A stretch of DNA of 64,000 bases from NCBI GenBank assembly GCA_937125285.1, contig CAKZLH010000165.1:37295-101294 (forward strand), read 5' to 3'. The translations under genes and the position numbers were made by a program. The notes beneath the pieces were generated by a model, which was given only the letters and a program-made list of their open reading frames with translations, had not been told where the DNA came from and did no database searches. Of the stretch, positions 20,241-46,264 are shown in pieces (within the stretch, counting starts at the first letter, position 1; each line of letters starts with the position of its first letter). Origin of the DNA: an uncultured Balneolaceae bacterium (lineage in GTDB: Bacteria; Bacteroidota; Rhodothermia; Balneolales; Balneolaceae).

Positions 20241-20241
20241 G

Positions 20242-24168: not shown

Positions 24169-24178
24169 AGAAAGACCT

Positions 24179-24463: not shown

Positions 24464-24496
24464 AAGTCTTTAATTCACATATAATCGGGTTTAAAA

Positions 24497-25806: not shown

Positions 25807-25816
25807 CTAATAAACA

Positions 25817-30209: not shown

Positions 30210-30229
30210 CACTTTAAGCTGACTCACTC

Positions 30230-31534
30230 ATGTTAAAAATATTCAAAGGGGTAGAAAGATTACATGTAATTAAGGCCTCTGAAATTCTAAAGCAAAAGGA
30301 TATAGTAATAAGTCCCAGACAACAGTACTGGGTAAGAATGCCAGATGGCAATGAGTGGCCCTATAAAGAACTTGTAAGAGAATCGGTCTACCAAGCAACT
30401 AAAATTATACTAGGAGATGAATTTCAGAGCAATGAAACCAATAGATCGAAATTTGAGAGTCTATACGACCTTGAAATCGTAGATTATAAGAAGCTTCCAT
30501 CTGTTGAATACTTATGTGAAAGGCTTAAAAGTAATTTCAAGAATATTTGGAGATGTGCGGATTCTGCTAAATGGTATATCCTTAAAAACACAAACCTGTT
30601 TACGTTTGATTGGTTTGATTCTGAAGTAAACTACTTAGGTAAAAGAAAGGAGAAAATAGGAAAAGGTAAAATGTCTATATATCCGTGGGTAAATGAACTG
30701 AGGATAGGTGATCTTATTTTCGTAATGAGTAAAAATCATTATTTCGGGACAGCCATAGCTAGATCAGAGTATAATTGGAGAGGCCCATTATTAGACATTG
30801 GTGGGGGGCGCAAGAAACCCGCTATTAAAGTAGAATATTTACATAAGTTAGATCAGCCAATTCTTCATGAGTTGAAGACCCATAATAGGCCAACCACATT
30901 TGCTAACATAGAGCACTATAGTTTTGGGTTATACAATACTCTTAGTTTTTTGAAAGACAGATTGCCGGGTGTATATGAGTCATTGAATGTTGTTGTTCAG
31001 GAAGTTGAGTACCCATCAAAAGTGCCAAGTGAAGCACTGGAATATATTGGGCAATCTAATCCTCCATCGTCTATTATAAGTTTTATATCAGATTCTCCAA
31101 GTTTTAAGGCTAACGAAGTCGACTACGAGAAAGAACATAGAAGAAATAAAGAAAAAGGAGATTTTGGAGAACGATACTTCGAATCATTGATTGAAAAGAA
31201 CCCAGATTTAATCGAGTTAGGTAGTCCTATTGCGAATATAGAAAAACAGAAGGATGGGGTTGGATATGATTATATGGTGAACACAGAAGATGGCAACCTG
31301 TACTATATTGAAATCAAATCTACTACTAGTTCAGCAAGTACTCCATTTTATATGTCTCATAATGAGAGGTCTTTTATGAAACAAGAATGCGAGAATTATA
31401 GGCTGATTAGATTCTACGATCTAAAACAAAAAAGAAGAGAAGGGTCATTTTTTGTACTAACTGCTAATGAGTTAAAATCAGGAGAATTCGATTTCAAGCC
31501 TACTAATTTTGAGATTTCCAGAACATTAAGTTGA
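30230..31534 (+). CDS. DUF3883-type PD-(D/E)xK nuclease-fold protein with N-terminal putative reader domains
   Basis: 434 aa; C-terminal GDFGERYFE...GVGYDYMV...YYIEIKST...FYMSHNERSF...YRLIRFY matches the DUF3883 pattern as recalled; the N-terminal domains were not identified. Confidence 0.55.
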   Translation: MLKIFKGVERLHVIKASEILKQKDIVISPRQQYWVRMPDGNEWPYKELVRESVYQATKIILGDEFQSNETNRSKFESLYDLEIVDYKKLPSVEYLCERLKSNFKNIWRCADSAKWYILKNTNLFTFDWFDSEVNYLGKRKEKIGKGKMSIYPWVNELRIGDLIFVMSKNHYFGTAIARSEYNWRGPLLDIGGGRKKPAIKVEYLHKLDQPILHELKTHNRPTTFANIEHYSFGLYNTLSFLKDRLPGVYESLNVVVQEVEYPSKVPSEALEYIGQSNPPSSIISFISDSPSFKANEVDYEKEHRRNKEKGDFGERYFESLIEKNPDLIELGSPIANIEKQKDGVGYDYMVNTEDGNLYYIEIKSTTSSASTPFYMSHNERSFMKQECENYRLIRFYDLKQKRREGSFFVLTANELKSGEFDFKPTNFEISRTLS

Positions 31535-31606
31535 GTGGCCGTAACTTAATTGTCAGGATCTATTATCTGAAATAGTCATGTTTACTAATCTGAATGCTCA
31601 AAAATG

Positions 31607-32062
31607 TTATTTCTTTTCAACAACCACCAGATCTCCACAAGCTGTCCACTTTTTAAAAATGTAGTTGTCATCATAATGCTGGTGAGGGATAGTTTTCAAG
31701 TTTATTATTCCATTAGCCCCTTTTAAGAAGGCATTGAATTTGAGTTCCCATATTGCTTTCTCAAAATCATCGTGTTCGAATATCGTTTCGAGATAAAAAA
31801 GATTTTCAACTATTCTGTGCTTCCCAATATGGTTGCTACGAACTGCAATAATTGAGTCAACTTTTTTTTCGCGTTCAATATTGCATTCATTACACAAATC
31901 CATTGGTTTTGAATATCCTGAATCATCCATATTTGCTTGATAAGTCTGGATTCTGTGGTCGCTACAGAGGTGGCCTCCGCAATCTGCACACCAATGGTCA
32001 CCAACTGGAATTAACCAAAGCCATTTATCTCTAGAGTCATTATTGCAGTATTTACATTTCAT
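31607..32062 (-). CDS. zinc-ribbon protein with a YbjQ/UPF0145-like C-terminal domain
   Basis: 151 aa; CKYCN...CADCGGHLCSDH...CNEC Cys clusters; C-terminal FLKGANGIINLK resembles the YbjQ signature. Confidence 0.4.
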   Translation of the reverse strand: MKCKYCNNDSRDKWLWLIPVGDHWCADCGGHLCSDHRIQTYQANMDDSGYSKPMDLCNECNIEREKKVDSIIAVRSNHIGKHRIVENLFYLETIFEHDDFEKAIWELKFNAFLKGANGIINLKTIPHQHYDDNYIFKKWTACGDLVVVEKK

Positions 32063-32157
32063 ACGTAGTATTTAAGATTAATATATAAAAATTAATTAGA
32101 TGAATCCGTTTTTTAAAAACACTTTAAAAGAGAAAGCTGGGCTTTCTCTTAATAATC

Positions 32158-32673
32158 TCACATATCTTTGAATTCTGGTTCCAATTTAAATTTGTACCTC
32201 ATTGTCTTGGAGTACCTGTCATAATGTCCCCAATAAAGATTGTCAAGACTTACGCTACCAGGAATCCTATACCCAATTCTTAATGGTTCTGTTTTAGCAT
32301 TGGGTTGAACAAAGCGAGCATTTTCTCCATTGGTAGGGGCATATAAGTTTCCGTCATCTGTAACTAAGTATTTATTACGGTATTCAAAGAAGTATTCTGC
32401 AGGTTCATTTTCCAGATTCATAGCTTGCCACATTACAAGTATTAAGTGATCGTTACCCTGAGTGTCGTAGACGCTAACTACTTGAATTGAGTCACTTCTA
32501 GTAATCCATTCACCTGAGTAATAAGAATATTCAAAAAATGTCCATGTATTCTCTTTTCCAACTTCTTCTTTATTCGAACACGACACCAAAAGAAGTACGA
32601 TGCTTATAAATAGAAATAGAATTATAGTTAGCTGCTTTATTTTGAGATAGTAGTTGGGGTTGATTGTATTCAT
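32158..32673 (-). CDS. hypothetical lipoprotein
   Basis: 171 aa; lipobox LLLVSCSN. Confidence 0.5.
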   Translation of the reverse strand: MNTINPNYYLKIKQLTIILFLFISIVLLLVSCSNKEEVGKENTWTFFEYSYYSGEWITRSDSIQVVSVYDTQGNDHLILVMWQAMNLENEPAEYFFEYRNKYLVTDDGNLYAPTNGENARFVQPNAKTEPLRIGYRIPGSVSLDNLYWGHYDRYSKTMRYKFKLEPEFKDM

Positions 32674-32706
32674 GTTGATGTCTTTTGGTTATTTATAGTA
32701 TGCAAT

Positions 32707-32726
32707 ATCCATACCATAGTATGGAT
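32707..32726. promoter_or_regulatory. palindromic operator candidate ATCCATAC-N4-GTATGGAT
   Basis: Perfect 8-bp arms in the divergent region between the lipoprotein gene and the XRE gene. Confidence 0.45.
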
Positions 32727-32757
32727 AGTCAAGATTATATTTCCTGCATGTTCCTCC

Positions 32758-33000
32758 ATGCATACAAAGGAAGAAATACAAGAAGCTTTATCTGTTGTGA
32801 TAAAGCGCGAACGAGATCAGAGAGGTTTATCTCAGTTCGATTTAGCTGTCGGCAGTGATCTGCACAGAACAATGATTGAGTTCATCGAGCGTAGAAAGCG
32901 AATGCCAACAATACATTCATTTTTAAAGATTGCTGAGGCGTTGGAAGTTTCACCAAGCTACCTCATGCAAGAGCTTGAAAGCGAGTTAGGTAAGAAATAA
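32758..33000 (+). CDS. XRE-family helix-turn-helix transcriptional regulator
   Basis: 80 aa; RGLSQFDLAVGSDLHRTMIEFIERRKRMPTIHSFLKIAEAL is a typical Cro/CI-type HTH. Confidence 0.8.
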   Translation: MHTKEEIQEALSVVIKRERDQRGLSQFDLAVGSDLHRTMIEFIERRKRMPTIHSFLKIAEALEVSPSYLMQELESELGKK

Positions 33001-33004
33001 AAAA

Positions 33005-33020
33005 GAAGCCCGAAGGCTTC
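33005..33020. terminator. shared hairpin terminator between convergent genes
   Basis: GAAGCC-CGAA-GGCTTC; on the minus strand it is followed by TTTTTTATTT, immediately after the TGA of the 33023..33538 gene. Confidence 0.6.
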
Positions 33021-33022
33021 TC

Positions 33023-33538
33023 TCAACTAGTCACACCATTCGCTGAAAACTCTTCAGCGGGTTTATAATCCGGGCGATCTATAACCCGAATATACTCTCC
33101 GGAAGGTTTTAGCGCAAAGTAAGAGACTTCGCCAGTATTGGGATCTTTGAAAGGTATAATACTTTCTATATTTGCGTATGTACGCTCATCTGTCTCATTA
33201 TGCACAAGGAATAAGGTGGCACTCATCCCTACGAAATGCTCAAGATTGATCCCATCATGAAGCTCCTTTGGCGAGTATTTTTCACCTCGCCACTTCTCCA
33301 GGAATTTGCGAAGGGAAGCTTTTTCGTTCAGGCTTTTAGTGAACCGTTTTCCAACTACAAAACACTTACCGTTTTCATCGGTAGATTCAAGCTCGAACAT
33401 CAAGCTTACTTTTTCTTTAGAACCCCAAGGGGTTTCGACCCGTCCAATGGAAATTGCGTCTACGCACACCCCATGGTGTAAGCCTTCATCCGGAATTGGA
33501 TATTGGGAAGGATCTTCGATAATTATTAAATCAGACAT
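33023..33538 (-). CDS. phage-type protein, DUF669-like (possible ssDNA-binding partner of the exonuclease)
   Basis: 171 aa directly downstream of the YqaJ gene; family recalled from overall pattern only; ends in TGA-G followed by a terminator hairpin. Confidence 0.35.
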   Translation of the reverse strand: MSDLIIIEDPSQYPIPDEGLHHGVCVDAISIGRVETPWGSKEKVSLMFELESTDENGKCFVVGKRFTKSLNEKASLRKFLEKWRGEKYSPKELHDGINLEHFVGMSATLFLVHNETDERTYANIESIIPFKDPNTGEVSYFALKPSGEYIRVIDRPDYKPAEEFSANGVTS

Positions 33539-33553
33539 TTCTGCCTCCAGTAG

Positions 33554-34522
33554 TTAATTGACGGTAAACCGTCGAGTTGTTATTTGGTTTAAGAATTGTT
33601 TGTAAAGCTCAGGGTGGGCCTTTTTGAAAGCTGGAGTATTCAACCGGTTTTGAGTCGAGCTTTTCCAGCTTATAAGTTTCTTACCGACGCATACCAGCTG
33701 TTCAGAATCTCCAAGATCCTGTTTGAGCTTTATGCGAAGGTGCTCTTCCATTCTTTCCAGATCGGAAATTCGATCTCTTACTTCTTTTAGCTCGGTGTAA
33801 TAGCCATAGGCTTTAGGAGTGGCCTCAAGCGTTTTATTCTCCATGCTATCAGGGTAGAGTAAAAGCATATCATCATCAGAGGTTGGTTCAGGTGGAATAT
33901 CCGCAATGATATGCCGGTTCCACCATGCCACTGCTTTTTCAAAGAGCTCATCAATTAGCTCTTGATTGCGTTGGATAAGAATTGGCTCATGAAAGATGCC
34001 AGTGTCTCTTTCCATAATGGCGAGGTACGCATAGGAGTAACCTGTCAGAAACATGTACCACTGAATCTGATACTCCCAGCTTAAGGGATACAGGTTTTCC
34101 TCACTTTTAAGGCGCATTGAACTTGTTGACTTTATTTCGAGGACACCGGGAGAACCATGAAGCTCAGAGGAAATGATTTGCCGATCTATATTTCCACGTA
34201 GGAAACTAAAATCCGGATGTTCATACGCCTCAGAGATATTGCGGACTTTCAGGCCAGTGGTCTGACAGAATTTTTCTGCAATCACAGGTTCCAAAATATG
34301 TCCGAGTTCAGTAATCGGCGTTGAACCTTGCGGTTCTATTCTTCCAGTTTTAATCAGCCAAAGCTGTAGCGGTGTTTGGTACTTTGATTTCCCAAAGGCA
34401 GCGGCAAGCTCGCTTCCTCCCAAATATTGTATTCGAGCGTGAACCCATTCTTTAGAAGGGATGTTGTCTAACAGTTTTGTCATAGGATATAGATTGAGAT
34501 TAGTAGAAATAGAAAAGGCCAC
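33554..34522 (-). CDS. YqaJ-like viral recombinase-domain exonuclease
   Basis: 322 aa; GGSELAAAFGKSKYQTPLQLWLIKTGR and later PD-(D/E)xK-like blocks (GNIDRQI, LEIKST). Confidence 0.8.
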   Translation of the reverse strand: MAFSISTNLNLYPMTKLLDNIPSKEWVHARIQYLGGSELAAAFGKSKYQTPLQLWLIKTGRIEPQGSTPITELGHILEPVIAEKFCQTTGLKVRNISEAYEHPDFSFLRGNIDRQIISSELHGSPGVLEIKSTSSMRLKSEENLYPLSWEYQIQWYMFLTGYSYAYLAIMERDTGIFHEPILIQRNQELIDELFEKAVAWWNRHIIADIPPEPTSDDDMLLLYPDSMENKTLEATPKAYGYYTELKEVRDRISDLERMEEHLRIKLKQDLGDSEQLVCVGKKLISWKSSTQNRLNTPAFKKAHPELYKQFLNQITTRRFTVN

Positions 34523-34525
34523 AGA

Positions 34526-34648
34526 TTATTCTGAAGCCTTTTCGGATTGGTTTTCTTTAGGTGGAGGAGGTGGAGGTGGTAGAAAGAATTTTAGAAGTTC
34601 TTTCACAAGCTCCGCGCTAGCATTAATTAGCTCTGTAGGATCGTTCAT
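34526..34648 (-). CDS. possible 40-aa micro-ORF with a poly-proline run
   Basis: MNDPTELINASAELVKELLKFFLPPPPPPPKENQSEKASE; not in the ORF track; the Pro run is encoded by the GGTGGAGG tandem repeat, so it may be non-coding. Confidence 0.2.
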   Translation of the reverse strand: MNDPTELINASAELVKELLKFFLPPPPPPPKENQSEKASE

Positions 34649-34703
34649 GATTTGTTACCAGTAATTATGATTATGATTACCTTAACTATCAGTTTGGGAA
34701 TGC

Positions 34704-35522
34704 TCATAGCGCAAACACCTTACTCACGTTTTCTTGATAACGAGCTTGTAGGTGAGGTTCCATCTCGTGGCTAATGTGATTGGTTAACCTGTTGAGCAGC
34801 CTCCATTGAGTGATGCGTCCAATTTCTTCTTCTTGAATGCATTGCTCAGCCAGGCGCTTAGAGATCTTGGTACTTACGTTCTCTACGAGTTGTTCATCTA
34901 CCCGTAGTAGCTCAAGGCGATTGATACGCTCTTGAATCTCCGGGAAGAAGGAACGTGCTTCGGCTAGCTTTTCACCTAAATCATCAAATGAGAATCCTTT
35001 GGTGTGACGAGAATAGTATTTACTAAGCACCGTCCCGAATACCATTCCGTTTGAGCAAATTGCTCGGATAGCTCCAAAATAAAAACGAATTCCTTCGCTC
35101 TGGTCGTAGGAGTTATGAATGAAGGCGGACAAGGCAATGTCTGACTCGCGATCACGAAGCCGAAGCTCTGGAAAGGTAATCTGTAGTCGCATACGCTCAT
35201 TGGTTACAAAGGAATGTGAGGCATCCACTTTAAAGCTTTGCCCGCAGGTTGCAAGTTGGCGCAGAAGCGCATCAATGAGCTCAGAGTTGGTCACGATTTT
35301 GTAAGTGTCGCGTACTATGGAAATGACCTCGTTCGTGTCTTCCCGAACAATGGCTTTATAACCATTGGACAGAAAGGTATCAGGGTTTTCCAGATTGATA
35401 ATGGGAGACTGAAAATCGTCGACAGCGACTTTTCGCTCAACCACCGGAAAGCAGAAAGGTTGAAGATTCATTAGAATTGGGTTAAGAGTTAATGGGATTA
35501 TTCCCATTGTTCTTATACCCAA
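34704..35522 (-). CDS. DUF932-domain protein (phage/ICE-associated)
   Basis: 272 aa; hallmark FIHNSYDQSEGIRFYFGAIRAICSNGMVFG. Confidence 0.7.
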   Translation of the reverse strand: MGIRTMGIIPLTLNPILMNLQPFCFPVVERKVAVDDFQSPIINLENPDTFLSNGYKAIVREDTNEVISIVRDTYKIVTNSELIDALLRQLATCGQSFKVDASHSFVTNERMRLQITFPELRLRDRESDIALSAFIHNSYDQSEGIRFYFGAIRAICSNGMVFGTVLSKYYSRHTKGFSFDDLGEKLAEARSFFPEIQERINRLELLRVDEQLVENVSTKISKRLAEQCIQEEEIGRITQWRLLNRLTNHISHEMEPHLQARYQENVSKVFAL

Positions 35523-35835: not shown

Positions 35836-35954
35836 TTTTTAAAGAAAAGATAGAATCGGATAATGTCAGCTTACGTCACCGTACTTTGGGGAATTTGGTA
35901 TAAGAATGGTGAAGGCCATTACGCTTTCACTACTCATAACTAACCTTATTAGCC

Positions 35955-36407
35955 ATGCATACTGTCTCTGAAGTCTCCCTCAAATACCAAACTCAAACAT
36001 CTTTCGAAGAAAAGCCCGTAATAAGTTCACCGGAACAAGCTCACCGGTTTCTCAAGAAAATCTGGGATTCAGATACTATTGAGCTCCGAGAAGAATTTGT
36101 TATTGTCTTATTGAACCATTCCAAAAAAGTGCTTGGGTGGAGTAAAGTTTCGACAGGAGGGCCATTTGCTACTATCGTACATCCAACTACGGTATTCCAA
36201 CTCATACTCTTAGGTAATGCTGCAAGTGTGATTTTGGCTCACAATCATCCTTCTGGAACTTTAAAACCGAGCCTAGCTGATATTGAGCTAACTAAACGCT
36301 TGTCGAAGGCTGGAAAGCTGTTTTCAATTGGCGTAGACGATCACTTAATTCTAACACGCGATAATTATCTATCCTTTCGGGAAGAGGGGTTAATGAAAGA
36401 GGGGTAA
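35955..36407 (+). CDS. radC: RadC-like JAB/MPN domain protein
   Basis: 150 aa; JAMM motif ILAHNHPSGTLKPSLADIELTKRL. Confidence 0.85.
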   Translation: MHTVSEVSLKYQTQTSFEEKPVISSPEQAHRFLKKIWDSDTIELREEFVIVLLNHSKKVLGWSKVSTGGPFATIVHPTTVFQLILLGNAASVILAHNHPSGTLKPSLADIELTKRLSKAGKLFSIGVDDHLILTRDNYLSFREEGLMKEG

Positions 36408-36540
36408 CTCTCTTTTTTTTAGATTATTAATCGCCTATAGGGAGACGAAAAAAAATTGGGAAAAAAATTTTCGGAATCCGTTTTTCAAATCAAAAAGGCT
36501 TTTTTCTGAATGAGGGTTTAATGCTTGGAATCTGGGTAGA

Positions 36541-36567
36541 TTGCCGGGAGTATGGGACCCGGCAATT
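36541..36567. terminator. stem-loop between the convergent radC-like and TGA-containing genes
   Basis: TTGCCGGG-N11-CCCGGCAA (8-bp GC-rich stem); no clear T-run. Confidence 0.35.
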
Positions 36568-36632
36568 ACCTCAAAAATGATATTAATTCGAATTTAGTGT
36601 CCCACCAGAAAGTGTTTAATCCGATTGATTAG

Positions 36633-37157
36633 CTAGCTATCTGCTTGCTCCTTAAGGTACAGGCTGTAGGCTTCTTCAATTTTTCGAAAGTGGCGCTCAA
36701 CATACCTTCCGGATTTATCTTCCTTCAAAACTTGTTTAAGCTCCTCTGGTGTGGTGATTCAATCTTTTGTTTTTTCATTATCAATCCAGTGAAAAATCTC
36801 CCGGCAGTACATACGATCCGCATTTTCTATGACTCATCCCATAAAAGTCCCTTTTTTTCTCATTATATAGATTGCTTTTCTGATTTCACGAGGGGTGGAG
36901 GAGCCAGGTTGAAGTCCGAAATCTAACGTTGGGTAGTTTCAAGGCGAAGTTCTTCCACGCAACACGGCCTCCATAATATTTGGGCAATTTGTTGCCGGAC
37001 GTTTTCAATCATTTCATTCTGCAATACGCCGAATCAGTATGATTGAAGTGTTAAATTTGCTCGCAGTTGCACGATGGCCGTGTTTCATTCAATATGCTTT
37101 GATGTCTTTCTCTTTGTGTTCCTTAAAAAGATCTGCTTTTCTTTTAATCTTTATCAT
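36633..37157 (-). CDS. 174-aa basic protein with six in-frame TGA codons (read as Trp); possible HTH protein
   Basis: 525 nt = 175 codons from ATG 37157 (AGGAGA 7 nt upstream) to TAG 36633-36635; TGA at 37089-91, 37014-16, 37005-07, 36939-41, 36834-36 and 36759-61; no TAA/TAG in frame; missing from the ORF track. Confidence 0.6.
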
Positions 37158-37554
37158 TGTTTATTCTCCTTTTAAATTAATGGGGTGGGGGAAGTCCGAT
37201 TTTCATCCCAAAACATTTGAATTTTGTTTTGAGAAGAATTTCAACTCTTTTGAAGCGATTTTGCCTCTCCTCCACCCCGGTTGTTGTTTTTTATTAGCCA
37301 AACAAAGGTTTATCCTGTGTGTCTGGTGGGTATGAAAGCTTACGTTCTACTTTATAGCGGTACATTCCTTTGAGCAATCTCCTTGGAAATCCATGTTTTA
37401 CTAGGAGTTTGCCTAAATACGCAGCGTTTGTTCCTTTTTGAACCCAATTTCGATCACGCATATCTTGTAATAGTTCAGAACTAGTCATTTCTTGCGTGCT
37501 TGCTCCACCCCGGTGCCCAGGCGTATAATGAAGTAAAAGCATTTCCTCCACCCC
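36892..37554. repeat. cluster of G-rich GGGGTGGAG(GAG) motifs, iteron-like (candidate ori)
   Basis: GGGGTGGAGGAG at 36892-36903 (+) and 37267-37278 (-); GGGGTGGAG at 37503-37511 (-) and 37546-37554 (-); variant GGGGTGGGGG at 37182-37191 (+); an AT-rich spacer at 37192-37266 lies between two inverted copies. Confidence 0.5.
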
Positions 37555-39330
37555 GCTTATATGAGCGTACCTGATATTATGAGCATTAATTCGTTGAATT
37601 TCTTCCCCCTCGAACCAGTACTGAAAACCGGAACGATAGAGTCCATACACCTGTGCCCAAAATAGTGTTCAGTCGATAGGAGTTTTGTAATCAATTTCGG
37701 TTACTGTATGAATGAGCATTCTTCGGCTTCCACTCACGTCAGAAATGAGCTGTTCCATGTTTGTGGAGCTTGCAAAACTAGCCCTTCGAACCATGGTTTG
37801 AGCAAACCGGCCATACGGTCTGCGCACCTTAATGCTTTGTAGGGTAATAAGTTCTTTTAACTCCGCTTCTTTTGTCCTATTAATTCCGTCTAATTCATTA
37901 ATGATTACTAGAATATTCTCTGCTAAGTTAATGATAGAATCCTTGTCTAACGGGTTCACCACCGTTGACACCACATACTCCGAAAGTGGTTGAAGCAGGT
38001 TGTATAGGAACGTACTCTTACCAATGCCCTGGCCGCCGACTAAAACTAGCATTGTTTGGTTTACCACCTTAGGGTTAACTGCTCCCGCTACCAGGCCAAC
38101 CATTCATTTCATAAATGTGAAGCGGAAATAATCCGGATCATCGGAAGTTACTGTAGCTATAAGTTTATCAATTTCCGAAGTGCCGTCCTCCTTTGGAAGA
38201 CTTTTAAAAAAGTGTACAAAGGGATCAAAGGAAGGGCAAAAGTCAGAAGTTATCAAACTGTGTAAGGCTCCCTCTCCCAGTGTGCCTCTTTGGTTTCGAA
38301 GGTGGCGTAGAATAGTAGCAAAGCCCCGATCATCGAGTAGCTGCCAGTCAGAGACTCCACGTTTGCGCCATTCCACCATTCCTCGCACTTCATTGTAGCG
38401 AAATCCATAATGAAACTGCAAAAACCCTTCCGTTTCTCCTTTATGTCGTACAAACCTGGTAAGTAAGACTTTTTCAATCGTCATTTGTCCATAGGTTGCT
38501 CCATCATGTCGATGCCCAGTATCCCATTTTTTTCTGAATAACTTAGAAGCGCGAATGATTCGATCTATAGCAGCCTCATCAAATCCCACAACATTAGCCA
38601 CTAAAGTAGTCAACCGTAAATCGGCCTTAGACTGATCACCACCATATCGACCAAGATCTCCATAAAGGAACAATGCCCGGAATTCAGCGCCATGTTTTTC
38701 ATCGCGTTCTAAACGTTCAATATTTCGTTCGTCTTTTTTTGTAAGAATGGCGGTAGTGGGACTGCAGCCTTGAGCAGTCTTGCTACCTGAATGGCCCAAC
38801 ATAGGAAGTATGGTTAACCACTTATCATTTTCAAATTTACGAAGTGGGGTAGGTGTTTCACTCCAAATCTCTCCTGTGATGGTTACGTACCGGCTATGTT
38901 CATAAATTTCGATCCCTTTTGTTCCATTCATACTGAAACGATTACTCATGCCTAGAGGCATTTGCCCATTGATCATAATACGGATTCCTTGGCCGCTGGG
39001 TGAAATTTCTGTATAGGAATCAAACGTTTTAATGAGTTGCTGGGTGGCATCTGAGATGTGGCCATCTTGAATGCATCCATCAATGTCAATAGCTACAAAA
39101 GGATCAGCATTGGTAAGTACAAACCCAACTCCGCTAAAGAACGAAGGTTGTTGGTTGTAGGCCTCGATTACATTGGTAAATGTAGTTCAGGTCGCTGGAT
39201 TGGTTACACTTGCATATGATCTGTTTGTCTGACGGGGCACTTTTGTTGCTTTGCCGTCTCTTTGTTCCAGTGTTCAGTTCACCCACTGGTCGGTGTTCGT
39301 TAGTTCATTAGGAATATGGTTATCTATCAT
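37294..39330 (-). CDS. Prim-Pol (AEP) primase fused to a VirE/D5-type P-loop NTPase, with four in-frame TGA codons (read as Trp)
   Basis: 2037 nt = 679 codons in a single frame with no TAA/TAG; TGA at 39274-76, 39187-89, 38104-06 and 37669-71; motifs FVAIDIDGC, YTEISPSGQG, LVLVGGQGIGKSTF; the ORF track splits it into 3 ORFs and misses the N-terminus. Confidence 0.75.
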
Positions 39331-39466
39331 CTTCTCTTAACCTCTATATTTTGATTTTATTTTTTGGACGTGTACATGTATTACATCCCTTTATTAATTC
39401 TATTCATTGTTAGAGGATTTGTCAAATTCTAGGTGGAAAAATTTCAATCTTTTTTTAACATAAGGC

Positions 39467-40039
39467 ATGAGTAATCCATATCAAGACTTTTTTAGCCGGA
39501 ATAATCTCCAAATGAACAAGCCCGGTAAAACATTAGTTGATGTATTAGACTGGCTGGAAGCGTCTGATCTTATGAGGGAGGGAGGATTGGATACTATTCA
39601 GTCAATGCTGCATGAGGTACACCAGTTTTCTTTTAAAACACCGGCAGAGTTTGTTGGGATGATCCGGATTTATCTACATGTGTTCCATCGTTTTCCACTT
39701 CATACAGGGCTGCGTATAAGCTACTTTAGCCTATGGCAGGATTTTTTGGATAGGTATTATACCGAGTTATCCATAGCCTCTATAAAGGCAGCACAATATA
39801 TATTGGAGCATCAAGTGAGGTATCTTCAAGTGTATTGTGATGGATACGATGCACTTCGTGTTACTTGTGAAGGGCTAGTCTACCGGATTCAAGCCCTCAC
39901 TGATCCAGTGCGAAAAACTATTCCCGAAGTAGATAATATAGATGTTCAGTCGGTAAAAGAAGTTTACCAAGTTAATCTTTCCGATCAGGAAGCTCTGGAT
40001 GTGGCAAGCCAGCAAATTTTATACAACCTTCGAAAATAG
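39467..40039 (+). CDS. hypothetical protein
   Basis: 190-aa ORF divergent from the primase operon; ends in TAG. Confidence 0.45.
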   Translation: MSNPYQDFFSRNNLQMNKPGKTLVDVLDWLEASDLMREGGLDTIQSMLHEVHQFSFKTPAEFVGMIRIYLHVFHRFPLHTGLRISYFSLWQDFLDRYYTELSIASIKAAQYILEHQVRYLQVYCDGYDALRVTCEGLVYRIQALTDPVRKTIPEVDNIDVQSVKEVYQVNLSDQEALDVASQQILYNLRK

Positions 40040-40094
40040 GCGAATATATTTAGATGGGTTAGAGAGTTAGATTCAGTGCATACGTGTTATAAGA

Positions 40095-42356
40095 CTACTT
40101 TTTGGTAAACCAATATCTAAATGGTTGATGCATTATAGTTAGATTTAGAGGAATTCCTACTCCACTCATACTTTGTTTACCTTTTTCGTCTTTCGGTAAA
40201 TGAGGGAAATGATGGCTTTCACTCTTAATGGTACCTAATGTTCTAAACCACTTATATAATTGGGTGTTATTTGGATAATATTCCTGCAATGGGGTATTTT
40301 TCCAAATATCTTTTGGAAACCAGCAGAAATTGCCGTCAATTACATAAGCATCAAAAGTAGAGTCATTAGACCAGTCCTTAAGCATTTTAGCAAAAGCTCG
40401 TTGCTCTTTCATACTGTGTGCTAAAGAGTAGTTCCAAATACTATCCAAACCGAACAAGATTTCTTGTTCCACTTTTGAAATGCCCCCAGCCATTTCGTCG
40501 ATAATCTTTCCTATCACGATAAGGGGCTTAGCCAATTGAAATTTTCGGTTGTCCAGTTTTTTACCGGATATCGGCATTTGAATATCAGTGGGGATCGATC
40601 CAATGGTATTTAGGATAATCTGGGTATGTAAAAGTGGAAGAGCAAGTGCTGAAGTTCTTATTAATTCTTGCTGATGTTCTACTTGTCGGTCAAACTCCAT
40701 AAACCCATCGAGTTGAATCTGTTTTGGTTTTTCCTCAGTGGGTATGGGGATTGTTCTAGAGGAAAGAGTATCCAGGTTTATTCCCCCAGTTCCACCAAAA
40801 GCTTTTGGAGAGTAGGTATGAAGTGTCTGAGAGGATTTCCCAGCTTTTTTAGTATATGTTCCTTTGTAGTTATAGCCACCGTTTAAAAATCGGGAAAGAT
40901 CATCATGAGTATTTTTAGAGGAAGAAAAATCCTCGAATTCATCAACGCACAATGTGGAAGAACTCAAATCAACAAGTTCTGTCATTGCCGCAACAGTAGC
41001 TTTTGTTTTGACTTCCCCGTTAAAAGAAAGAGCAGCAATAACATCAAGAATGGTGGTTTTTCCACTTCCTTTAATTCCTTGGAAATGTAAGTAGGGATAA
41101 GCGGGAAATGCTTTGTAAAAATAAGTTCCAAGAATCCATGCAGTAAGAACCGAATACCATGAATCTTCTTTGAGGTATATGTAACGCTTTATGAAATCCA
41201 GAGTGGATGTAAACAATTCATCAAATGGAACAATGCGTTCTTCCTGGATCCTTTGAATAATATCTGGTGTACAGACTGTACGAAATGGCTCAAAATGTCG
41301 GAATTCAACAAATTCAAAAGCCTTCAGATCGTTAACCGAGAGAATACGAAAAGGATTAGATATCGCCACCGAGTCTGCATCACCAATCTGAAAGAAAAAC
41401 CTATTTCCCTGAATATCTTGGGCGGGGTCAATTTCTGGAATCCTTTGAGAACGAGCAGCATTATATGCTTTTTTAGAAGGGATATCTCCAGGAATCAGGG
41501 AATGGGAGAATTTTCTGATTCTGTTTTCAAAAGCCTCAATCCCATATTTAGCCAAGAAATCCTCGGCTTTTTGTTTACCAAAAGCGCCTGCTGAATTGAT
41601 TCGATATACAGAAATGCCAGCCTTAAGACAAAGCTCTGCAAACGGATAGATAGAATAATCAAAAGTGACTCCTTCATGATCTGCAAGTAGGTAAACATCT
41701 GTTTCAGAAAGCAAATCAGAGTAATTGAAATGGGAAAGTTCATTTTGACTTGGCAGAGAGAGGGCCTTTATACCTTGCTCATTGAAATAATCGGCCACTA
41801 AAGGATCCCAGGTTACCAATACCGAGGTAGGATTTTGTTGGAGAATATTTGGATGAATTCGTTGTACCCCATAGGATTCCCATTGTATTCCTATTTCATT
41901 AATAACGACATCTCGGGTAGCAATGCAGTATCCTGCCGAAGACAAACAATGGTAACGTAGAATATTATCCGAAGCATCTCCTTCTTTCCACACTCTCATT
42001 GACTTATATCCGTCTATCAAGTTAGCATGGTTGGAGGGGGTGTCACAAAAGTCAGCTACTCTTGTAAAGCTTGTTTCATAAGTTTCAGCAACCGCTAATC
42101 CATCAGGTTCAGTTATTCCATATATGAGATCTAAAAGCTCAGATACTGGTGTAAGTTTATTATCTACTTCGATATAGTCCTTTTGATATCGTAAAGAACG
42201 CTTATTGCCAAAACGATCAATAAAATTCAGGTCAATGGGATACTCTTCAAGAAAATAGGCCTCCTGATCAAAGTCAGGAAAAGTAATACGTACAAATTCA
42301 CCTTGTTTCTGAGTGGAGAGGAGCTTTTTATGTGCCTTTTTGAAATTAATACCCAT
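40095..42356 (-). CDS. Toprim-like + DUF3631-like P-loop protein
   Basis: 753 aa; Toprim-like DVYLLADHEGVTFDY...GISVYRI...AEDFLAKYG; Walker A GIKGSGKTT, Walker B LCVDEFED, then LNGGYNYKG...SPKAFGG...LSSRTIPIP as in DUF3631. Confidence 0.55.
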   Translation of the reverse strand: MGINFKKAHKKLLSTQKQGEFVRITFPDFDQEAYFLEEYPIDLNFIDRFGNKRSLRYQKDYIEVDNKLTPVSELLDLIYGITEPDGLAVAETYETSFTRVADFCDTPSNHANLIDGYKSMRVWKEGDASDNILRYHCLSSAGYCIATRDVVINEIGIQWESYGVQRIHPNILQQNPTSVLVTWDPLVADYFNEQGIKALSLPSQNELSHFNYSDLLSETDVYLLADHEGVTFDYSIYPFAELCLKAGISVYRINSAGAFGKQKAEDFLAKYGIEAFENRIRKFSHSLIPGDIPSKKAYNAARSQRIPEIDPAQDIQGNRFFFQIGDADSVAISNPFRILSVNDLKAFEFVEFRHFEPFRTVCTPDIIQRIQEERIVPFDELFTSTLDFIKRYIYLKEDSWYSVLTAWILGTYFYKAFPAYPYLHFQGIKGSGKTTILDVIAALSFNGEVKTKATVAAMTELVDLSSSTLCVDEFEDFSSSKNTHDDLSRFLNGGYNYKGTYTKKAGKSSQTLHTYSPKAFGGTGGINLDTLSSRTIPIPTEEKPKQIQLDGFMEFDRQVEHQQELIRTSALALPLLHTQIILNTIGSIPTDIQMPISGKKLDNRKFQLAKPLIVIGKIIDEMAGGISKVEQEILFGLDSIWNYSLAHSMKEQRAFAKMLKDWSNDSTFDAYVIDGNFCWFPKDIWKNTPLQEYYPNNTQLYKWFRTLGTIKSESHHFPHLPKDEKGKQSMSGVGIPLNLTIMHQPFRYWFTKK

Positions 42357-44523
42357 GAGGCTTCTCCAGTAGGTTGGTAATTATTTCATCGGTGAGGGGA
42401 TCTCCATCTTTAGTGTGGACACGTAAATATCTTAGCAGTTGTTGGAAGAACCCAGTGACTTCTGCTTGAGAATATGGACGGTCGGGATGCGCAAAATGAG
42501 CTACTACTAGTTCGACAGTCTTTTCACCTACCGTATTTTTAATGGAGCTTAATAGCCCGGAAAACTGGGTTCGATACCCTTCCTCATCAGGGTATGTGAC
42601 TTCGACATGAAGTCCAAAACGGCCAGTACGTTTTAAAGCTGGATCAATGTCTTCAAATAAATTGGTAGCAGCCATGCATAGTACACCTTCATTGTCATTT
42701 GCACCACTCAACTGGGTAAGCATAGCATTTATAGCATCATTTTGGTGAGCTTCAGCACTTGCTTGTCTATTACCCAAGCTATCGATTTCATCAAAGAATA
42801 AAAGAATGGGACGAAATAGCCTTGCCTTTTCAAAGAGTGAGGCAATATTCTTGCTTGTATCTCCAACATACTTAGATTTGAGTTCTCCAAGATTGACTTC
42901 CATAAACAATACATTGAGTTCATTAGCAATCGCATTTGCCAGAGAGGTTTTACCTGTTCCCGGTTTTCCATGTAGCAAAATTCCATTAGCCTGAATCTCG
43001 GGTAGATCTTGACGGTATATTTCAGGTTGTATCGAAAATAGGAGTTCTTGCTTTAGTTGGTTATAGATCTTTTCGGCCCCATATAGTTCATCAATAGTAA
43101 GAGTGGGTATCGTAATGTTAAGCTCCAGTTCACACAACGGAGTAACTGATTTTAAAGCTTCCTCAAAGTCCGAGGATATGATAAATGAGGAAGTTTCAGT
43201 TGAAGTTTGTTTAATACGATGTCGTTGATGTGCGACAACTTTTTCGATAAAGGTCTTAATATCTGCTCCTACAAAGCCAATTATACGATTGGAGAGGTCT
43301 TTCAAATACTGGTGTGTAATCTGACTAGTATCTACTTGTAGCTTTTTAACTAGAGAACCAATTATCTCAAATCTGCCAGTAGAATCGGGTGGGGGAACGG
43401 CAATTTTCGTGTCAAAACGACCGGAACGAAGTACAGCAGTATCTAACTCGGATATATAGTTAGTTGCAGCAATGACCAAAACATGGGGTGCACGTTTTTG
43501 GGGGTCGAGTTCTTGCAGTAAAGTATTTACATTTTCCTTGTCGTGGGTGCTCATACCGGAGCGATGCCCGGCTATGGCATCAATTTCATCGATAAAAAGA
43601 ATTGCTCCCTGAGAATAAGAAGCAGCTTCTTGAAATTTCTCTGCGATTTTTAGTGAGGTTTCATGAACATAAGGAGAGCCTATGCCTTCCAAGTCCATTC
43701 GAACTAAAGGAAGATCCAAATCATGGGCGATAGCTTTTGCAAGCTGAGTTTTACCTGTTCCAGGAGGACCGTACAAAAGGACACCACCTACTGGAGTTGG
43801 ATCGGAGTATAATTGTTGATTAAGAAAGTCGCTGAAAGGATGAATAACCTCAATAAGAAGACGTTCAATAACAGTATCTATTCCCTTAAGCTCATTTAGT
43901 GAGCTTTTGGAAAAAGGTCTCCGGGATCTTAAAGGAGGATAACTGGTTAGCTGTGGATCATTGATTGGATTAACCACAGACTCTAAGGAACCTGATTCTT
44001 CTGATTTTTCCGACTTATTGTCTTTGTTTGATTCTGAAGGTCGAGGCAGATAATTCCGTTTGATTTCAGTGTTGTATGTAAGAATACCGGCTTCCATTTT
44101 GGGTGAAATCTTACTTACTTCAAACACAAGCCCTTCTACATAAACCTTTTGATTTTTGAATACGATAACCTTGTCGTCTATCTCATGGGTGATGAGAGGA
44201 AATTCCGGATCATCATCATTTTCATCTCCTTCGGTTTTTATTTCTTGTAGGGAAACCTTGTTAATAAATGAGAGGCTCGGAAAAGAAAGAAATCCGTATT
44301 CTTTATCATCACAATAAAGTTTGCTCCATGAGTCATCAACGATTACGACTTCTTGTTGATGGTACTTGGCATGTACAGGTGCAATTCGCCCCTCTATGTG
44401 TTTGTCGGTTTCCCATTCTATTCTACATTCACGGCCATACTTAGCTTGAGACTGTATAATGAGTCTTGGGCTTACCCCAATTCCTTCAAAACCGGGAACA
44501 TAAATGATTCGGACTTTTTGCAT
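42346..44523 (-). CDS. CDC48/VCP-like tandem AAA+ ATPase
   Basis: 725 aa; two AAA modules (LLYGPPGTGKTQLA...ILFIDEID and LLHGKPGTGKTSLA...LLFFDEID) after a ~190-aa N-domain and an acidic/Ser-rich linker; overlaps the downstream gene by 11 nt. Confidence 0.8.
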   Translation of the reverse strand: MQKVRIIYVPGFEGIGVSPRLIIQSQAKYGRECRIEWETDKHIEGRIAPVHAKYHQQEVVIVDDSWSKLYCDDKEYGFLSFPSLSFINKVSLQEIKTEGDENDDDPEFPLITHEIDDKVIVFKNQKVYVEGLVFEVSKISPKMEAGILTYNTEIKRNYLPRPSESNKDNKSEKSEESGSLESVVNPINDPQLTSYPPLRSRRPFSKSSLNELKGIDTVIERLLIEVIHPFSDFLNQQLYSDPTPVGGVLLYGPPGTGKTQLAKAIAHDLDLPLVRMDLEGIGSPYVHETSLKIAEKFQEAASYSQGAILFIDEIDAIAGHRSGMSTHDKENVNTLLQELDPQKRAPHVLVIAATNYISELDTAVLRSGRFDTKIAVPPPDSTGRFEIIGSLVKKLQVDTSQITHQYLKDLSNRIIGFVGADIKTFIEKVVAHQRHRIKQTSTETSSFIISSDFEEALKSVTPLCELELNITIPTLTIDELYGAEKIYNQLKQELLFSIQPEIYRQDLPEIQANGILLHGKPGTGKTSLANAIANELNVLFMEVNLGELKSKYVGDTSKNIASLFEKARLFRPILLFFDEIDSLGNRQASAEAHQNDAINAMLTQLSGANDNEGVLCMAATNLFEDIDPALKRTGRFGLHVEVTYPDEEGYRTQFSGLLSSIKNTVGEKTVELVVAHFAHPDRPYSQAEVTGFFQQLLRYLRVHTKDGDPLTDEIITNLLEKPHGY

Positions 44524-45964: not shown

Positions 45965-46264
45965 CTATTTCAAAACCTTAGTCACCCAAGCCCGGCTTAC
46001 CCCGAACTTTCGAGCAAGCTCGGCTTGGTTTTTTACTTTACCAGAGTCTAGTAATTTCCTATAAAGCTTAGCCTGCCGGGCCCGTGTATTTTTCATATCG
46101 GTCCTTGCAGGTTGGTTAACATATTTTCGTGTTAACTCCGTGTTCGCATGATCAAAAAAAGGAAGTGATTTTTGGAGCTTTTTTAGGTCAATTTCAAAAC
46201 GAGTGCCATTAGAACCGCCTTTTATAACCCCAATAGGCCATTTTATTTCGAACAATATTCGCAA
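45965..46264 (-). CDS. small HTH DNA-binding protein next to the right repeat (possible directionality factor)
   Basis: 99 aa; C-terminal NQAELARKFGVSRAWVTKVLK is a resolvase/Hin-type HTH; the role is inferred from position only. Confidence 0.45.
   Translation of the reverse strand: MRILFEIKWPIGVIKGGSNGTRFEIDLKKLQKSLPFFDHANTELTRKYVNQPARTDMKNTRARQAKLYRKLLDSGKVKNQAELARKFGVSRAWVTKVLK

What the first reader, a model, noticed from the sequence alone, without database searches (positions are those of the whole stretch)
36633..39330. Strong 3'-context bias: TGA-A versus TGG-(not A) within the same two genes
Hand count over all 20 Trp-position codons. TGA is followed by A in 9 cases and by G in 1. 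TGG is followed by A in 2 cases (TGG AGT, TGG ATT) and by a non-A base in 8. The two neighbouring element genes that genuinely seem to stop at TGA use TGA-G: 33023..33538, followed by a terminator hairpin, and 34704..35522, followed 6 codons later by TAG. Established knowledge: a 3' adenine is the classic context that favours UGA decoding by tRNA-Trp and by suppressor tRNAs in E. coli. The bias therefore looks selected for readthrough or suppression rather than random.
Basis: partly seen in the sequence, partly recalled or inferred. Interest (0 to 1): 0.75.

Follow-up and report, generated by a model that had tools for sequence, protein, structure and literature searches.

The report
TGA-coded tryptophans in replication genes
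Two replication genes of a mobile island in a Balneolaceae bacterium spell half of their tryptophans with the stop codon TGA; the excess of A after those TGAs is real here but is mostly shared ancestry plus an ordinary codon-neighbour preference, whereas the gene-specific recoding is the unusual part.

Summary
The hand count is exact. There are 10 in-frame TGA (9 followed by A, 1 by G) and 10 TGG (2 followed by A). Fisher p = 0.0055.

The TGAs are genuine Trp codons:
- They sit at Trp columns that all distant homologues write TGG.
- Both genes are under purifying selection downstream of every TGA (dN/dS 0.1-0.2).
- The recoding recurs in about 15 related elements, including non-homologous replicases.
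- It never occurs in the other 25 island genes (0 TGA, 113 TGG).
- No suppressor tRNA lies in the window or in any related locus.

The A bias does not hold up as a TGA-specific signal:
- The window and its closest relatives (L001, L029, L002) form a single lineage.
- Across the family, with shared states collapsed, TGA-A is 19/36 against TGG-A 19/50 (odds ratio 1.8, p = 0.19).
- Ordinary NGA/NGG codons in the same genes give the same odds ratio (1.95).
- Five genuine stops in the window are TGA-A.
- A weak avoidance of pyrimidines after TGA remains (p = 0.03).

Best reading: TGA is a conditional Trp codon that gates translation of the replication module. It is probably read by a suppressor supplied in trans. 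The 3' context is generic codon-pair bias with at most weak extra selection.

The parts
37294..39330 (-). Gene A: primase-polymerase plus VapE-type helicase, 678 codons, with four in-frame TGA at Trp positions (codons 19, 48, 409, 554) and a TAA TAA stop
   Evidence: Translation. Pfam: NrS1-1_pol-like_HBD 3.8e-13, VapE-like 3.9e-37, DUF5906. dN/dS 0.11 against L002, and 0.04-0.20 in every segment between TGAs. TGA is conserved in L001, L002, L003, L029 and L053.
36633..37157 (-). Gene B: 174-codon all-helical protein of unknown function, with six in-frame TGA (codons 23, 48, 51, 73, 108, 133), one TGG and a TAG stop
   Evidence: No Pfam, PHROG or PADLOC hit. AlphaFold2 model of the 75%-identical homologue P0121 (not of window gene B itself) has pLDDT 94, with no significant PDB or BFVD match. 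dN/dS is about 0.2. Homologues in many elements are also interrupted by TGA.
39274..39276 (-). TGA codon 19 of A (TGA-ACA), the second Trp of the family-wide QWVxW motif. It is TGA in every lineage of this clade.
39187..39189 (-). TGA codon 48 of A (TGA-ACT), in the conserved T-W motif
38104..38106 (-). TGA codon 409 of A (TGA-ATG). It is TGG-ATT in L002 and TGA-TTG in L003.
37669..37671 (-). TGA codon 554 of A (TGA-ACA). It is TGG-G in L053.
36759..37091 (-). Span holding the six TGA codons of B. First bases on the minus strand: 37091, 37016, 37007, 36941, 36836, 36761. Next bases: A, A, A, A, G, A.
37158..37293 (-). Conserved A-B intergenic element: inverted repeat GGGGTGGAGGA / TCCCCCACCCC around an AT-rich core of about 75 nt, then the Shine-Dalgarno sequence of B. 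Candidate replication origin or structured RNA.
   Evidence: Alignment and folds. The equivalent spacer in L003 carries five CCGTAYRG iterons. No Rfam or tRNA hit.
35955..36407 (+). RadC-like JAB gene in standard code (2 TGG, 0 TGA, TAA stop). It travels with B and A as a 3.5-kb module.
   Evidence: Pfam 6.1e-36. L001 shares only window 35952..39441, at 97% identity..
16169..17990 (.). Proposed left end of the island (boundary not verified; no att repeats sought): tRNA-Asn(GTT) at 16169..16241 and a large serine recombinase at 16290..17990 (-). This is the only tRNA in the window.

Best explanation
Shown: genes A and B are intact, selected genes in which TGA is read as tryptophan. This is gene-specific recoding of the replication module of an integrative island, in a Balneolaceae host whose own genes and the other island genes use TGA as a stop.

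Shown: the choice between TGA and TGG at a given Trp site follows the same neighbour rule as any other NGA/NGG synonymous pair in these genes. The A-ending codon is preferred before a purine, especially A, and the G-ending codon before a pyrimidine. The extreme 9/10 in this window is one inherited lineage state on top of that generic codon-pair bias.

Possible but weak: some extra selection against a pyrimidine after TGA.

Inferred: with 4 and 6 TGAs per gene, leaky readthrough cannot give full-length protein. An efficient opal-suppressing activity supplied in trans is therefore needed. Candidates are a tRNA-Trp(UCA)-like suppressor or a loss of RF2 activity. The TGAs, one of them always within the first 50 codons, would then act as a translational gate. 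The gate keeps the element's replication proteins off until that activity appears.
For: TGA is Trp and is translated:
- TGA sits at W19 and W48 of the QWVxW and TW motifs, which all 44 intact distant homologues checked write TGG.
- dN/dS is 0.11 for A and about 0.2 for B, and 0.04-0.20 in each segment downstream of each TGA.
- A and B end in TAA or TAG.

The recoding is gene-specific:
- A+B have 10 TGA and 10 TGG. The 25 other island genes have 0 TGA and 113 TGG (p = 5e-10).
- Of 51 window stops, 18 are TGA.

The recoding is conserved and recurrent:
- It occurs in L001, L002, L003, L029, L052, L053-55 and L056-L065.
- It includes a non-homologous 839-aa primase/helicase-like replication protein (no Pfam hit; assigned from sequence motifs only) and a PriCT-type primase.

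No suppressor in cis: ARAGORN and Rfam find no tRNA other than tRNA-Asn in the window, and none in 13 related loci.

The context bias is generic:
- Family TGA/TGG odds ratio is 1.8; non-Trp NGA/NGG odds ratio is 1.95.
- The window table gives p = 0.11 under the same-gene background odds ratio of 4.05.
- Other window genes show NGA/NGG odds ratios of 1.6-2.5.
Against: - No decoding agent was found. The host chromosomes could not be scanned, so a host-encoded tRNA(UCA) or an unusual tRNA-Trp is not excluded.
- The window count is still nominally above the rest-of-window background (p = 0.02).
- Family-wide, TGA is followed by a purine more often than other NGA codons are (31/36 against 162/236, p = 0.03). 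Some TGA-specific context selection may therefore exist.
- TGA and TGG states agree at 12 of 12 shared Trp columns between the window and L003, although synonymous sites are saturated. That hints at site-specific constraint. Against L053 only 11 of 19 agree.
- No expression or proteomic data exist.
Confidence: 0.62

Rival explanations
1. The A after TGA is specifically selected because it favours decoding of UGA, by tRNA-Trp or a suppressor, over termination by RF2.
For: - Window table 9/1 against 2/8, p = 0.0055.
- The E. coli precedent for +4A, and for +4U as the worst context for suppression.
- Family-wide TGA-A is 53% against 39% for other NGA codons (p = 0.07), and TGA-purine is 86% against 69% (p = 0.03).
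- Coupled changes: L002 column 336 is TGA-AAG where the others have TGG-CAG or TGG-GAG. Column 562 is TGA-A in the window clade and TGG-G in L053.
Against: - The odds ratio collapses to 1.8 with homologues and equals the NGA/NGG background of 1.95.
- L003 keeps TGA-T, TGA-T and TGA-C at conserved sites. L060 has TGA-T, and L056 and L065 have many TGA-G.
- At column 74, TGG-A is the commonest state in relatives.
- Five genuine stops are TGA-A.
- The window, L001, L029 and L002 are one lineage, so the ten sites are not independent evidence of repeated selection.
Confidence: 0.2
2. Chance plus shared ancestry. The 9/1 against 2/8 split is sampling noise in 20 codons, inherited by close relatives, with no process behind it.
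For: - There are only 20 sites.
- p = 0.11 once the same-gene codon-pair background is used.
- Relatives outside the clade show 50-60% A.
Against: The direction is the same in nearly every lineage and matches a highly significant generic NGA/NGG effect (p = 0.006 in these genes; odds ratio 1.6-2.5 in the other window genes). A real, though non-specific, process therefore exists.
Confidence: 0.12
3. Mutational origin. The genes are decaying pseudogenes in which TGG-A was converted to TGA-A by a context-dependent G-to-A process, for example a TC-specific cytosine deaminase acting on the opposite strand.
For: TGGA to TGAA is exactly the change such a deaminase makes, and the bias is towards GA-to-AA contexts.
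Against: - dN/dS is 0.1-0.2 with no frameshifts and no TAA or TAG.
- The same TGAs persist across lineages with saturated synonymous sites (pS 0.83).
- TGA occurs only at Trp codons of replication genes, never in neighbouring genes.
- The recoding recurs in non-homologous replicases.
Confidence: 0.03

Closest known systems
Stop-codon-recoded phages and prophages in standard-code hosts (code 4 Agate, Jade, Sapphire; code 15 Garnet, Topaz, crAss-like). Borges et al. preprint 10.1101/2021.08.26.457843; Zeta crAss-like phages PMC12386605.
   Same: - In-frame TGA read as Trp in a subset of genes of a mobile element whose host uses TGA as a stop.
- Integrase and 'early' genes stay in standard code.
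- Recoding is proposed to act as a translational switch.
- Some opal-recoded Zeta crAss phages also lack an identifiable suppressor tRNA.
   Different: - There are no structural, packaging or lysis genes here. The island carries defence cargo: type I R-M, CBASS-like genes and an IetA-like ATPase.
- The recoded genes are the replication module. In Agate-type phages replication genes are in standard code.
- No suppressor tRNA, TrpRS or RF1 'code-change' genes occur in cis.
- The host lineage (Balneolaceae) and the apparently non-gut sources are new.
Leaky UGA-A readthrough by wild-type tRNA-Trp in E. coli (Engelberg-Kulka 1981; Kopelowitz et al. 1992, as cited in PMC10540940 and PMC5289835)
   Same: UGA is read as Trp. 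A 3' A is the favourable context and a 3' U the worst. The window's 9/10 TGA-A matches the favourable context.
   Different: - The classic cases have a single UGA read at a few per cent, giving an extended minor product.
- Here 4-6 UGAs per gene sit inside essential domains, so a yield of r^n would be negligible.
- +4A is not conserved in homologues.
Early-stage UGA-to-Trp reassignment in 'Ca. Providencia siddallii' (PMC10540940)
   Same: A few genes carry in-frame UGA=Trp while UGA still serves as a stop elsewhere. An A-rich 3' context is invoked to allow the readthrough.
   Different: That case is a genome-wide drift process in a reduced endosymbiont, starting with prfB. Here recoding is confined to one module of a horizontally mobile island in free-living bacteria, and it recurs across many element lineages.
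Phage satellites and other integrative elements with a primase-helicase plus adjacent origin (SaPI/PICI or P4-like pri-rep-ori modules; from my own knowledge)
   Same: - A site-specific recombinase next to a tRNA gene.
- A primase-helicase gene followed directly by an iteron or inverted-repeat region.
- A small DNA-binding-like protein next to it.
- Replication expected to be off in the integrated state.
   Different: No capsid-redirection or packaging genes were found, and helper dependence is untested. Control by in-frame stop codons has not, to my knowledge, been described for satellites.
Generic codon-pair (codon context) bias in bacteria (for example PMC2585594, PMC3202573; listed, not read)
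   Same: The choice between synonymous A-ending and G-ending codons depends on the first base of the next codon. NGA/NGG pairs here show an odds ratio of about 2, the same as TGA/TGG.
   Different: Normally this does not involve a stop codon. Here TGA behaves like one more synonymous codon.

Membership tests
Genes written in genetic code 4 (TGA = Trp) | In-frame TGA at positions that homologues conserve as Trp | tested here: met
   A19, A48, A416, A562 and B46, B74, B135, B161 align with TGG/W in relatives. All 44 intact distant primase-polymerase homologues have TGG at W16, W19 and W48; the one exception, L025, has several kinds of in-frame stop and looks degraded.
Genes written in genetic code 4 (TGA = Trp) | Reading frame maintained and under purifying selection downstream of the TGAs; the gene ends in TAA or TAG | tested here: met
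   dN/dS 0.11 (A) and about 0.2 (B); 0.04-0.20 in each segment between TGAs. Stops are TAA TAA and TAG.
Genes written in genetic code 4 (TGA = Trp) | A cognate decoder (tRNA-Trp with a UCA anticodon, or a suppressor) in the same genome or element | tested here: not met
   The only tRNA in the 64-kb window is tRNA-Asn. None was found in L001-L003, L029 or L052-L060 (L061-L065 were not scanned). No weak Rfam tRNA hit in 30-47 kb. The rest of the host chromosomes could not be scanned.
Genes written in genetic code 4 (TGA = Trp) | TGA not used as a stop in the organism (RF2 dispensable) | tested here: not met
   18 of 51 window genes, host and island, stop at TGA.
Programmed leaky UGA readthrough dependent on a 3' A | The +4 A is conserved at the readthrough site in homologues | tested here: not met
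   L003 has TGA-T, TGA-T and TGA-C at shared sites. Family-wide the next base is A 19, G 12, T 4, C 1.
Programmed leaky UGA readthrough dependent on a 3' A | One (rarely two) stop codons, with a functional short product and a minor extended product | tested here: not met
   There are 4 and 6 TGAs inside conserved domains. The first lies at codon 19 (A) and codon 23 (B), so the short products would be 18- and 22-residue peptides.
Stop-codon-recoded (pro)phage | Virion, packaging or lysis genes, with recoding concentrated in them | tested here: not met
   Pfam, PHROG and PADLOC scans of the larger ORFs in 16-46 kb (the short ORFs at 24179..24463 and 25817..26308 gave no hit or were not scanned) show recombinase, R-M, CBASS-like, YqaJ, DUF932, RadC and AAA+ genes, and no structural genes. 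No IMG/VR or INPHARED relative of the module was found.
Stop-codon-recoded (pro)phage | A standard-code host with a recoded subset of element genes | tested here: met
Phage satellite (PICI/P4-like) | Integrase plus a primase-helicase with an adjacent origin | tested here: inconclusive
   A serine recombinase lies at the tRNA-Asn, and L053 has a tyrosine integrase. Iterons occur in L003 and an inverted repeat in the window clade. Origin function was not shown.
Phage satellite (PICI/P4-like) | Helper-dependent induction and packaging functions | not testable with these tools
   No packaging genes were recognised. Helper dependence needs experiments.
Selenoprotein genes (UGA = Sec) | UGA at a Cys/Sec catalytic position, with a downstream SECIS hairpin | tested here: not met
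   Where a TGA column is shared with relatives it aligns with Trp; a few lineage-specific TGAs fall where relatives have K, R or L. There are 4-6 per gene. No Rfam SECIS hit.
Pseudogene | Relaxed constraint, mixed types of disruption | tested here: not met
   Low dN/dS, no frameshifts, and only TGA, only at Trp.

The most novel reading that the evidence does not exclude
The in-frame TGAs are a translational lock. The island's replication proteins (primase-helicase A, protein B, and in sister elements other replicases) would then be made only when the cell's code is switched to TGA = Trp by a suppressor tRNA supplied in trans. The most attractive source is an infecting TGA-recoded phage. That would make these defence-laden islands satellites or sentinels that sense genetic-code switching and replicate in response.
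Probability: 0.25. Interest if true: 0.9.

Novelty: new variant of a known kind. Interest (0 to 1): 0.5.

Why it matters
The context bias, taken alone, adds little. It shows that TGA behaves like an ordinary synonymous codon of TGG in these genes.

What matters is what it sits on. This is a family of non-phage integrative islands in standard-code Bacteroidota (Balneolaceae). In them only the replication genes, even non-homologous ones, are written with TGA = Trp, and no suppressor lies in cis.

If the decoder comes from a recoded phage or from a regulated host tRNA, this would be a new way for a mobile element to couple its replication to the translational state of the cell. It would also extend stop-codon recoding beyond phages.

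There is a practical point as well. Such genes are split into fragments in public protein sets, or are called with code 4 only on short contigs. Families of this kind are therefore systematically under-detected.

Tried and rejected
- **Hidden suppressor tRNA.** ARAGORN and Rfam (gathering threshold on the whole window; E-value threshold on 30-47 kb) found only tRNA-Asn. Thirteen related loci held no tRNA (L061-L065 not scanned). The conserved A-B intergenic hairpin was inspected as a possible odd tRNA and rejected. It is a Y-shaped three-way fold with no T arm and no canonical anticodon loop.
- **Pseudogene or deaminase hypermutation.** Rejected by dN/dS and by conservation of the TGAs.
- **Selenocysteine.** Rejected, because the TGAs are at Trp columns.
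- **Close relatives in phage, viral or plasmid collections.** None were found:
  - protein patterns and hand-made degenerate DNA patterns that avoid Trp codons, against IMG/VR;
  - the neighbouring YqaJ gene against IMG/VR;
  - INPHARED;
  - PLSDB.
- **Window proteins in the protein collection.** The window's RadC protein is not there, and A has no hit above 38% identity.
- **Function of B.** Pfam, PHROGs and PADLOC gave nothing. A confident AlphaFold2 model had no significant Foldseek match in PDB or BFVD.
- **Control count on a known TGA-recoded phage.** Lera phage PV725988 is not in the local collection, so this was not done.
- **Position-specific conservation of the TGA/TGG state.** It is striking for the window against L003 (12/12, p = 0.002). 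It is not general, since only 11 of 19 columns agree with L053. I do not build on it.
- **Literature.** Searches found nothing on Balneolaceae recoding or on recoded non-phage elements.
Full report
**The observation**

The region holds two co-directional genes on the minus strand. Gene A is 37294..39330: 678 codons, ATG to TAA TAA. Gene B is 36633..37157: 174 codons, ATG to TAG. Read with TGA as a sense codon, both are uninterrupted.

A has TGA at codons 19, 48, 409 and 554, each followed by A. It has nine TGG, one of them followed by A. B has TGA at codons 23, 48, 51, 73, 108 and 133, followed by A, A, A, A, G, A. It has one TGG, followed by A.

Fisher two-sided p = 0.0055. The binomial p for 9/10 against the first-codon-position A frequency of these genes (0.33) is 3e-4.

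**What the genes are**

A is a primase-polymerase (NrS-1 polymerase helical-bundle domain) fused to a VapE/D5-type helicase. B has no family in Pfam, PHROGs or PADLOC. An AlphaFold2 model of its 75%-identical homologue P0121 (window B itself could not be submitted) is confident (pLDDT 94) and all-helical, but has no significant PDB or BFVD match.

The genes lie in an island that appears to begin at tRNA-Asn (16169..16241), next to a large serine recombinase; the island boundaries themselves were not tested. The island carries:
- a type I R-M system with embedded SMODS/SAVED/SLATT (CBASS-like) genes;
- a YgjP peptidase and a NOV_C protein;
- an HTH regulator, a YqaJ exonuclease, DUF932 and RadC;
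- after A, an IetA-like double-AAA ATPase with a 753-aa partner.

The flanks encode SusC-like TonB receptors and a LacI-family regulator, so the host is a member of the Bacteroidota. Related loci name it as Balneolaceae.

**The TGAs are real Trp codons**

1. W19 and W48 belong to the QWVxW and TW motifs of this primase-polymerase family. All 44 intact distant homologues fetched from genomes, viral contigs and metagenomes write them TGG (a 45th, L025, has mixed in-frame stops and looks degraded).
2. Five independent assemblies of close or moderately related elements keep TGA at the same columns. These are L001 (98%), L029 (97%), L002 (88%), L053 (67%) and L003 (43% amino-acid identity).
3. dN/dS between the window and L002 is 0.11 for A (dS 0.59) and about 0.2 for B. 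It is 0.04-0.20 in every segment downstream of each TGA.
4. There are no frameshifts and no in-frame TAA or TAG.

Pseudogenes, and a hypermutation origin of the TGGA-to-TGAA pattern, are therefore excluded.

**The recoding is gene-specific and recurrent**

In the window, 18 of 51 genes, host and island, stop at TGA. The other 25 island genes contain 113 TGG and no in-frame TGA, against 10 and 10 in A+B (p = 5e-10). In every related locus only the A and B homologues are affected.

A phmmer search with a B homologue against 1.8 billion representative proteins found 18 relatives. Most are fragments that start or stop at TGA sites. Their contigs show sister elements with recoded B genes. In some of these, other replication genes are recoded too:
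- an 839-aa protein with primase-polymerase-like and helicase-like sequence motifs but no Pfam hit, unrelated to A (three TGA in L057; also in L061 and L062);
- a PriCT-type primase (five TGA, L065).

Each recoded gene for which the 5' end is available has a TGA within its first 50 codons.

No tRNA other than tRNA-Asn exists in the window. None was found in the 13 related loci scanned, and no weak tRNA-like Rfam hit occurs in 30-47 kb.

**Testing the 3'-context bias**

Three controls bear on it.

*(a) Background in the same genes.* Ordinary NGA codons (AGA, CGA, GGA) are followed by A in 23/50 cases. NGG codons are followed by A in 4/23 (odds ratio 4.05). In the other window genes the same pairs give odds ratios of 1.6-2.5, while all NNA/NNG pairs together give 1.15. 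With fixed margins, the probability of 9 or more TGA-A is 0.0027 at odds ratio 1, 0.02 at 1.9 and 0.11 at 4.05.

*(b) More homologues.* The window, L001, L029 and L002 are one lineage (8-9 of 9-10 TGA-A each). Outside that clade the TGA-A counts are as follows:

| Locus | TGA-A / all TGA |
|---|---|
| L003 | 3/6 |
| L053 | 3/4 |
| L052 | 3/5 |
| L056 | 2/4 |
| L057 | 3/4 |
| L060 | 0/2 |
| L061-L065 | 11/19 |

TGG-A in these lineages is about 37%. Collapsing identical states in the same alignment column gives the following over the whole family:

| Codon | next A | next G | next T | next C |
|---|---|---|---|---|
| TGA | 19 | 12 | 4 | 1 |
| TGG | 19 | 15 | 10 | 6 |

The odds ratio for A is 1.8 (p = 0.19). 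Non-Trp NGA/NGG codons in the same alignments give 93/236 against 33/132, an odds ratio of 1.95 (p = 0.006). The TGA/TGG association therefore equals the generic one.

*(c) Genuine stops.* Five real TGA stops in the window are TGA-A, four of them island genes. TGA-A is thus not a sufficient readthrough signal.

One residual remains. TGA is followed by a purine in 31/36 cases, against 162/236 for other NGA codons (Fisher p = 0.03). This fits the reported poor suppression at +4U. A few column-wise switches also go the predicted way. At column 336, L002 has TGA-AAG against TGG-CAG or TGG-GAG elsewhere. At column 562, the window clade has TGA-A against TGG-G in L053. Others do not: TGG-A is the common state at column 74, and L003 has TGA-T and TGA-C.

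*Conclusion on the finding.* The count is right and nominally significant. The bias is best described as one inherited lineage state plus the ordinary rule by which A-ending and G-ending synonymous codons are chosen according to the next base. A plausible cause of that rule is avoidance of GGA/SD-like strings across codon boundaries. That cause is my inference and was not tested. Any TGA-specific selection on the +4 base is weak.

The positive message is that TGA behaves as a normal synonymous partner of TGG, which again says it is a sense codon in these genes.

**How the TGAs are probably read (inferred)**

Leaky readthrough at a few per cent per site, the E. coli UGA-A precedent, would yield r^4 to r^6 of full-length protein. 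That is effectively nothing. An efficient opal-suppressing state is therefore needed.

The host and the other island genes rely on TGA stops, so that state is unlikely to be constitutive. No decoder lies in cis, so it must come in trans. Three sources are conceivable:
- a regulated host tRNA;
- a loss of RF2 activity;
- a suppressor tRNA brought by a TGA-recoded phage. This last fits best with what is known from recoded phages that infect standard-code Bacteroidota and Firmicutes. Some opal-recoded Zeta crAss phages also lack their own suppressor.

On this reading the TGAs gate translation of the replication module. I rate the phage-supplied version at about 0.25.

**Comparison with known systems**

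The closest are code-4 and code-15 phages and prophages. This element differs in three ways: it is not a phage, it recodes replication genes rather than late genes, and it lacks code-change genes. It also resembles satellite pri-rep-ori modules. No paper describing recoding in Balneolaceae or in non-phage integrative elements turned up in the searches. I therefore class the underlying feature as a new variant of a known kind. The context bias itself is an instance of known codon-pair bias.

**Limits**

- Host chromosomes could not be scanned for tRNA(UCA), tRNA-Trp or prfB.
- No recoded phage was available for a control count.
- The family sample is small (36 TGA and 50 TGG states after collapsing), and the collapsing is only a crude correction for phylogeny.
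- There are no expression data.

Noticed in passing
window 37158..37293 (minus strand); L003 12008..12279: The A-B spacer is more conserved than nearby synonymous sites. It folds into a Y-shaped structure closed by GGGGTGGAGGA / TCCCCCACCCC around an AT-rich core. In the divergent element L003 the equivalent spacer instead holds five of the locus's six CCGTAYRG repeats. Both look like replication origins placed right after the replicase gene, but a structured RNA is not excluded.
   Followed up: partly
window 35952..39441 against L001 9890..13372: A different Balneolaceae chromosome (OZ245822.1) shares only the 3.5-kb RadC-B-A segment, at 97% identity, in an otherwise unrelated neighbourhood. 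The recoded module therefore moves or recombines as a unit.
   Followed up: partly
window 39980..44523 against L003 4823..9346: The genes flanking A (the 753-aa protein and the IetA-like AAA ATPase) are 86% identical in DNA to L003. Gene A is only 43% identical in protein. The replicase module has been swapped between otherwise similar islands, yet both alleles are TGA-recoded.
   Followed up: partly
L057 6234..8753; L061; L062; L065 1204..2100: In sister elements, replication genes not homologous to A also carry in-frame TGA at Trp positions. These are an 839-aa protein with no Pfam hit that I read as a primase/helicase from motifs only, and a PriCT/BT4734-type primase. Recoding tracks function (replication) rather than gene family.
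   Followed up: partly
window A+B against L003 A+B (alignment columns): At all 12 Trp columns shared with L003 the TGA or TGG state is identical: 6 TGA/TGA and 6 TGG/TGG. Lys, Glu and Gln A/G-ending codons are randomised between the same two sequences (58% the same, pS 0.83). Against L053 only 11 of 19 columns agree, so this site-specific conservation is unexplained and may be partly chance.
   Followed up: partly
window 30230..35522: The four TGA stops in this stretch (ends of 30230..31534, 32158..32673, 33023..33538 and 34704..35522; the last three are genes shared with sister elements) are all TGA-G. The DUF932 gene has a second in-frame TGA and then TAG within six codons, a pattern kept in L002, L003 and L053. 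The TGA-A stops are in the R-M/CBASS cargo. This may be backup termination for a suppressing state, or chance (n = 4).
   Followed up: no
window 18196..31534 and 40095..44523: The island is a defence island. It holds type I R-M genes (HsdS, HsdM, HsdR) interleaved with two SMODS/SAVED/SLATT (CBASS-like) cassettes, a YgjP peptidase, a NOV_C/PDC-S36-like protein, and an IetA-like tandem-AAA ATPase with a large unknown partner.
   Followed up: partly
P0121/L052, P0123/L056 against P0122, P0124-P0139: Public gene calls for this family are inconsistent. On two very short contigs the caller evidently chose code 4 and gave full-length B proteins. Elsewhere the genes are split into fragments that begin after, or end at, TGA. 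Gene A has no close hit at all in a 5.8-billion-protein set. Recoded non-phage genes are being lost from protein catalogues.
   Followed up: partly
L062 1..460; L063 429..746: In some lineages B is split into separate ORFs for its N- and C-terminal domains, in different frames or ended by TAA/TAG. It may also be reduced to the N-terminal HTH-like half. This suggests a two-domain protein whose halves can act separately, or assembly errors on short contigs.
   Followed up: no
window 46002..46137 (+): A weak Rfam match to SprD sRNA (22 bits against a gathering score of 100, E = 0.74) near the presumed right end of the island. Almost certainly noise.
   Followed up: no
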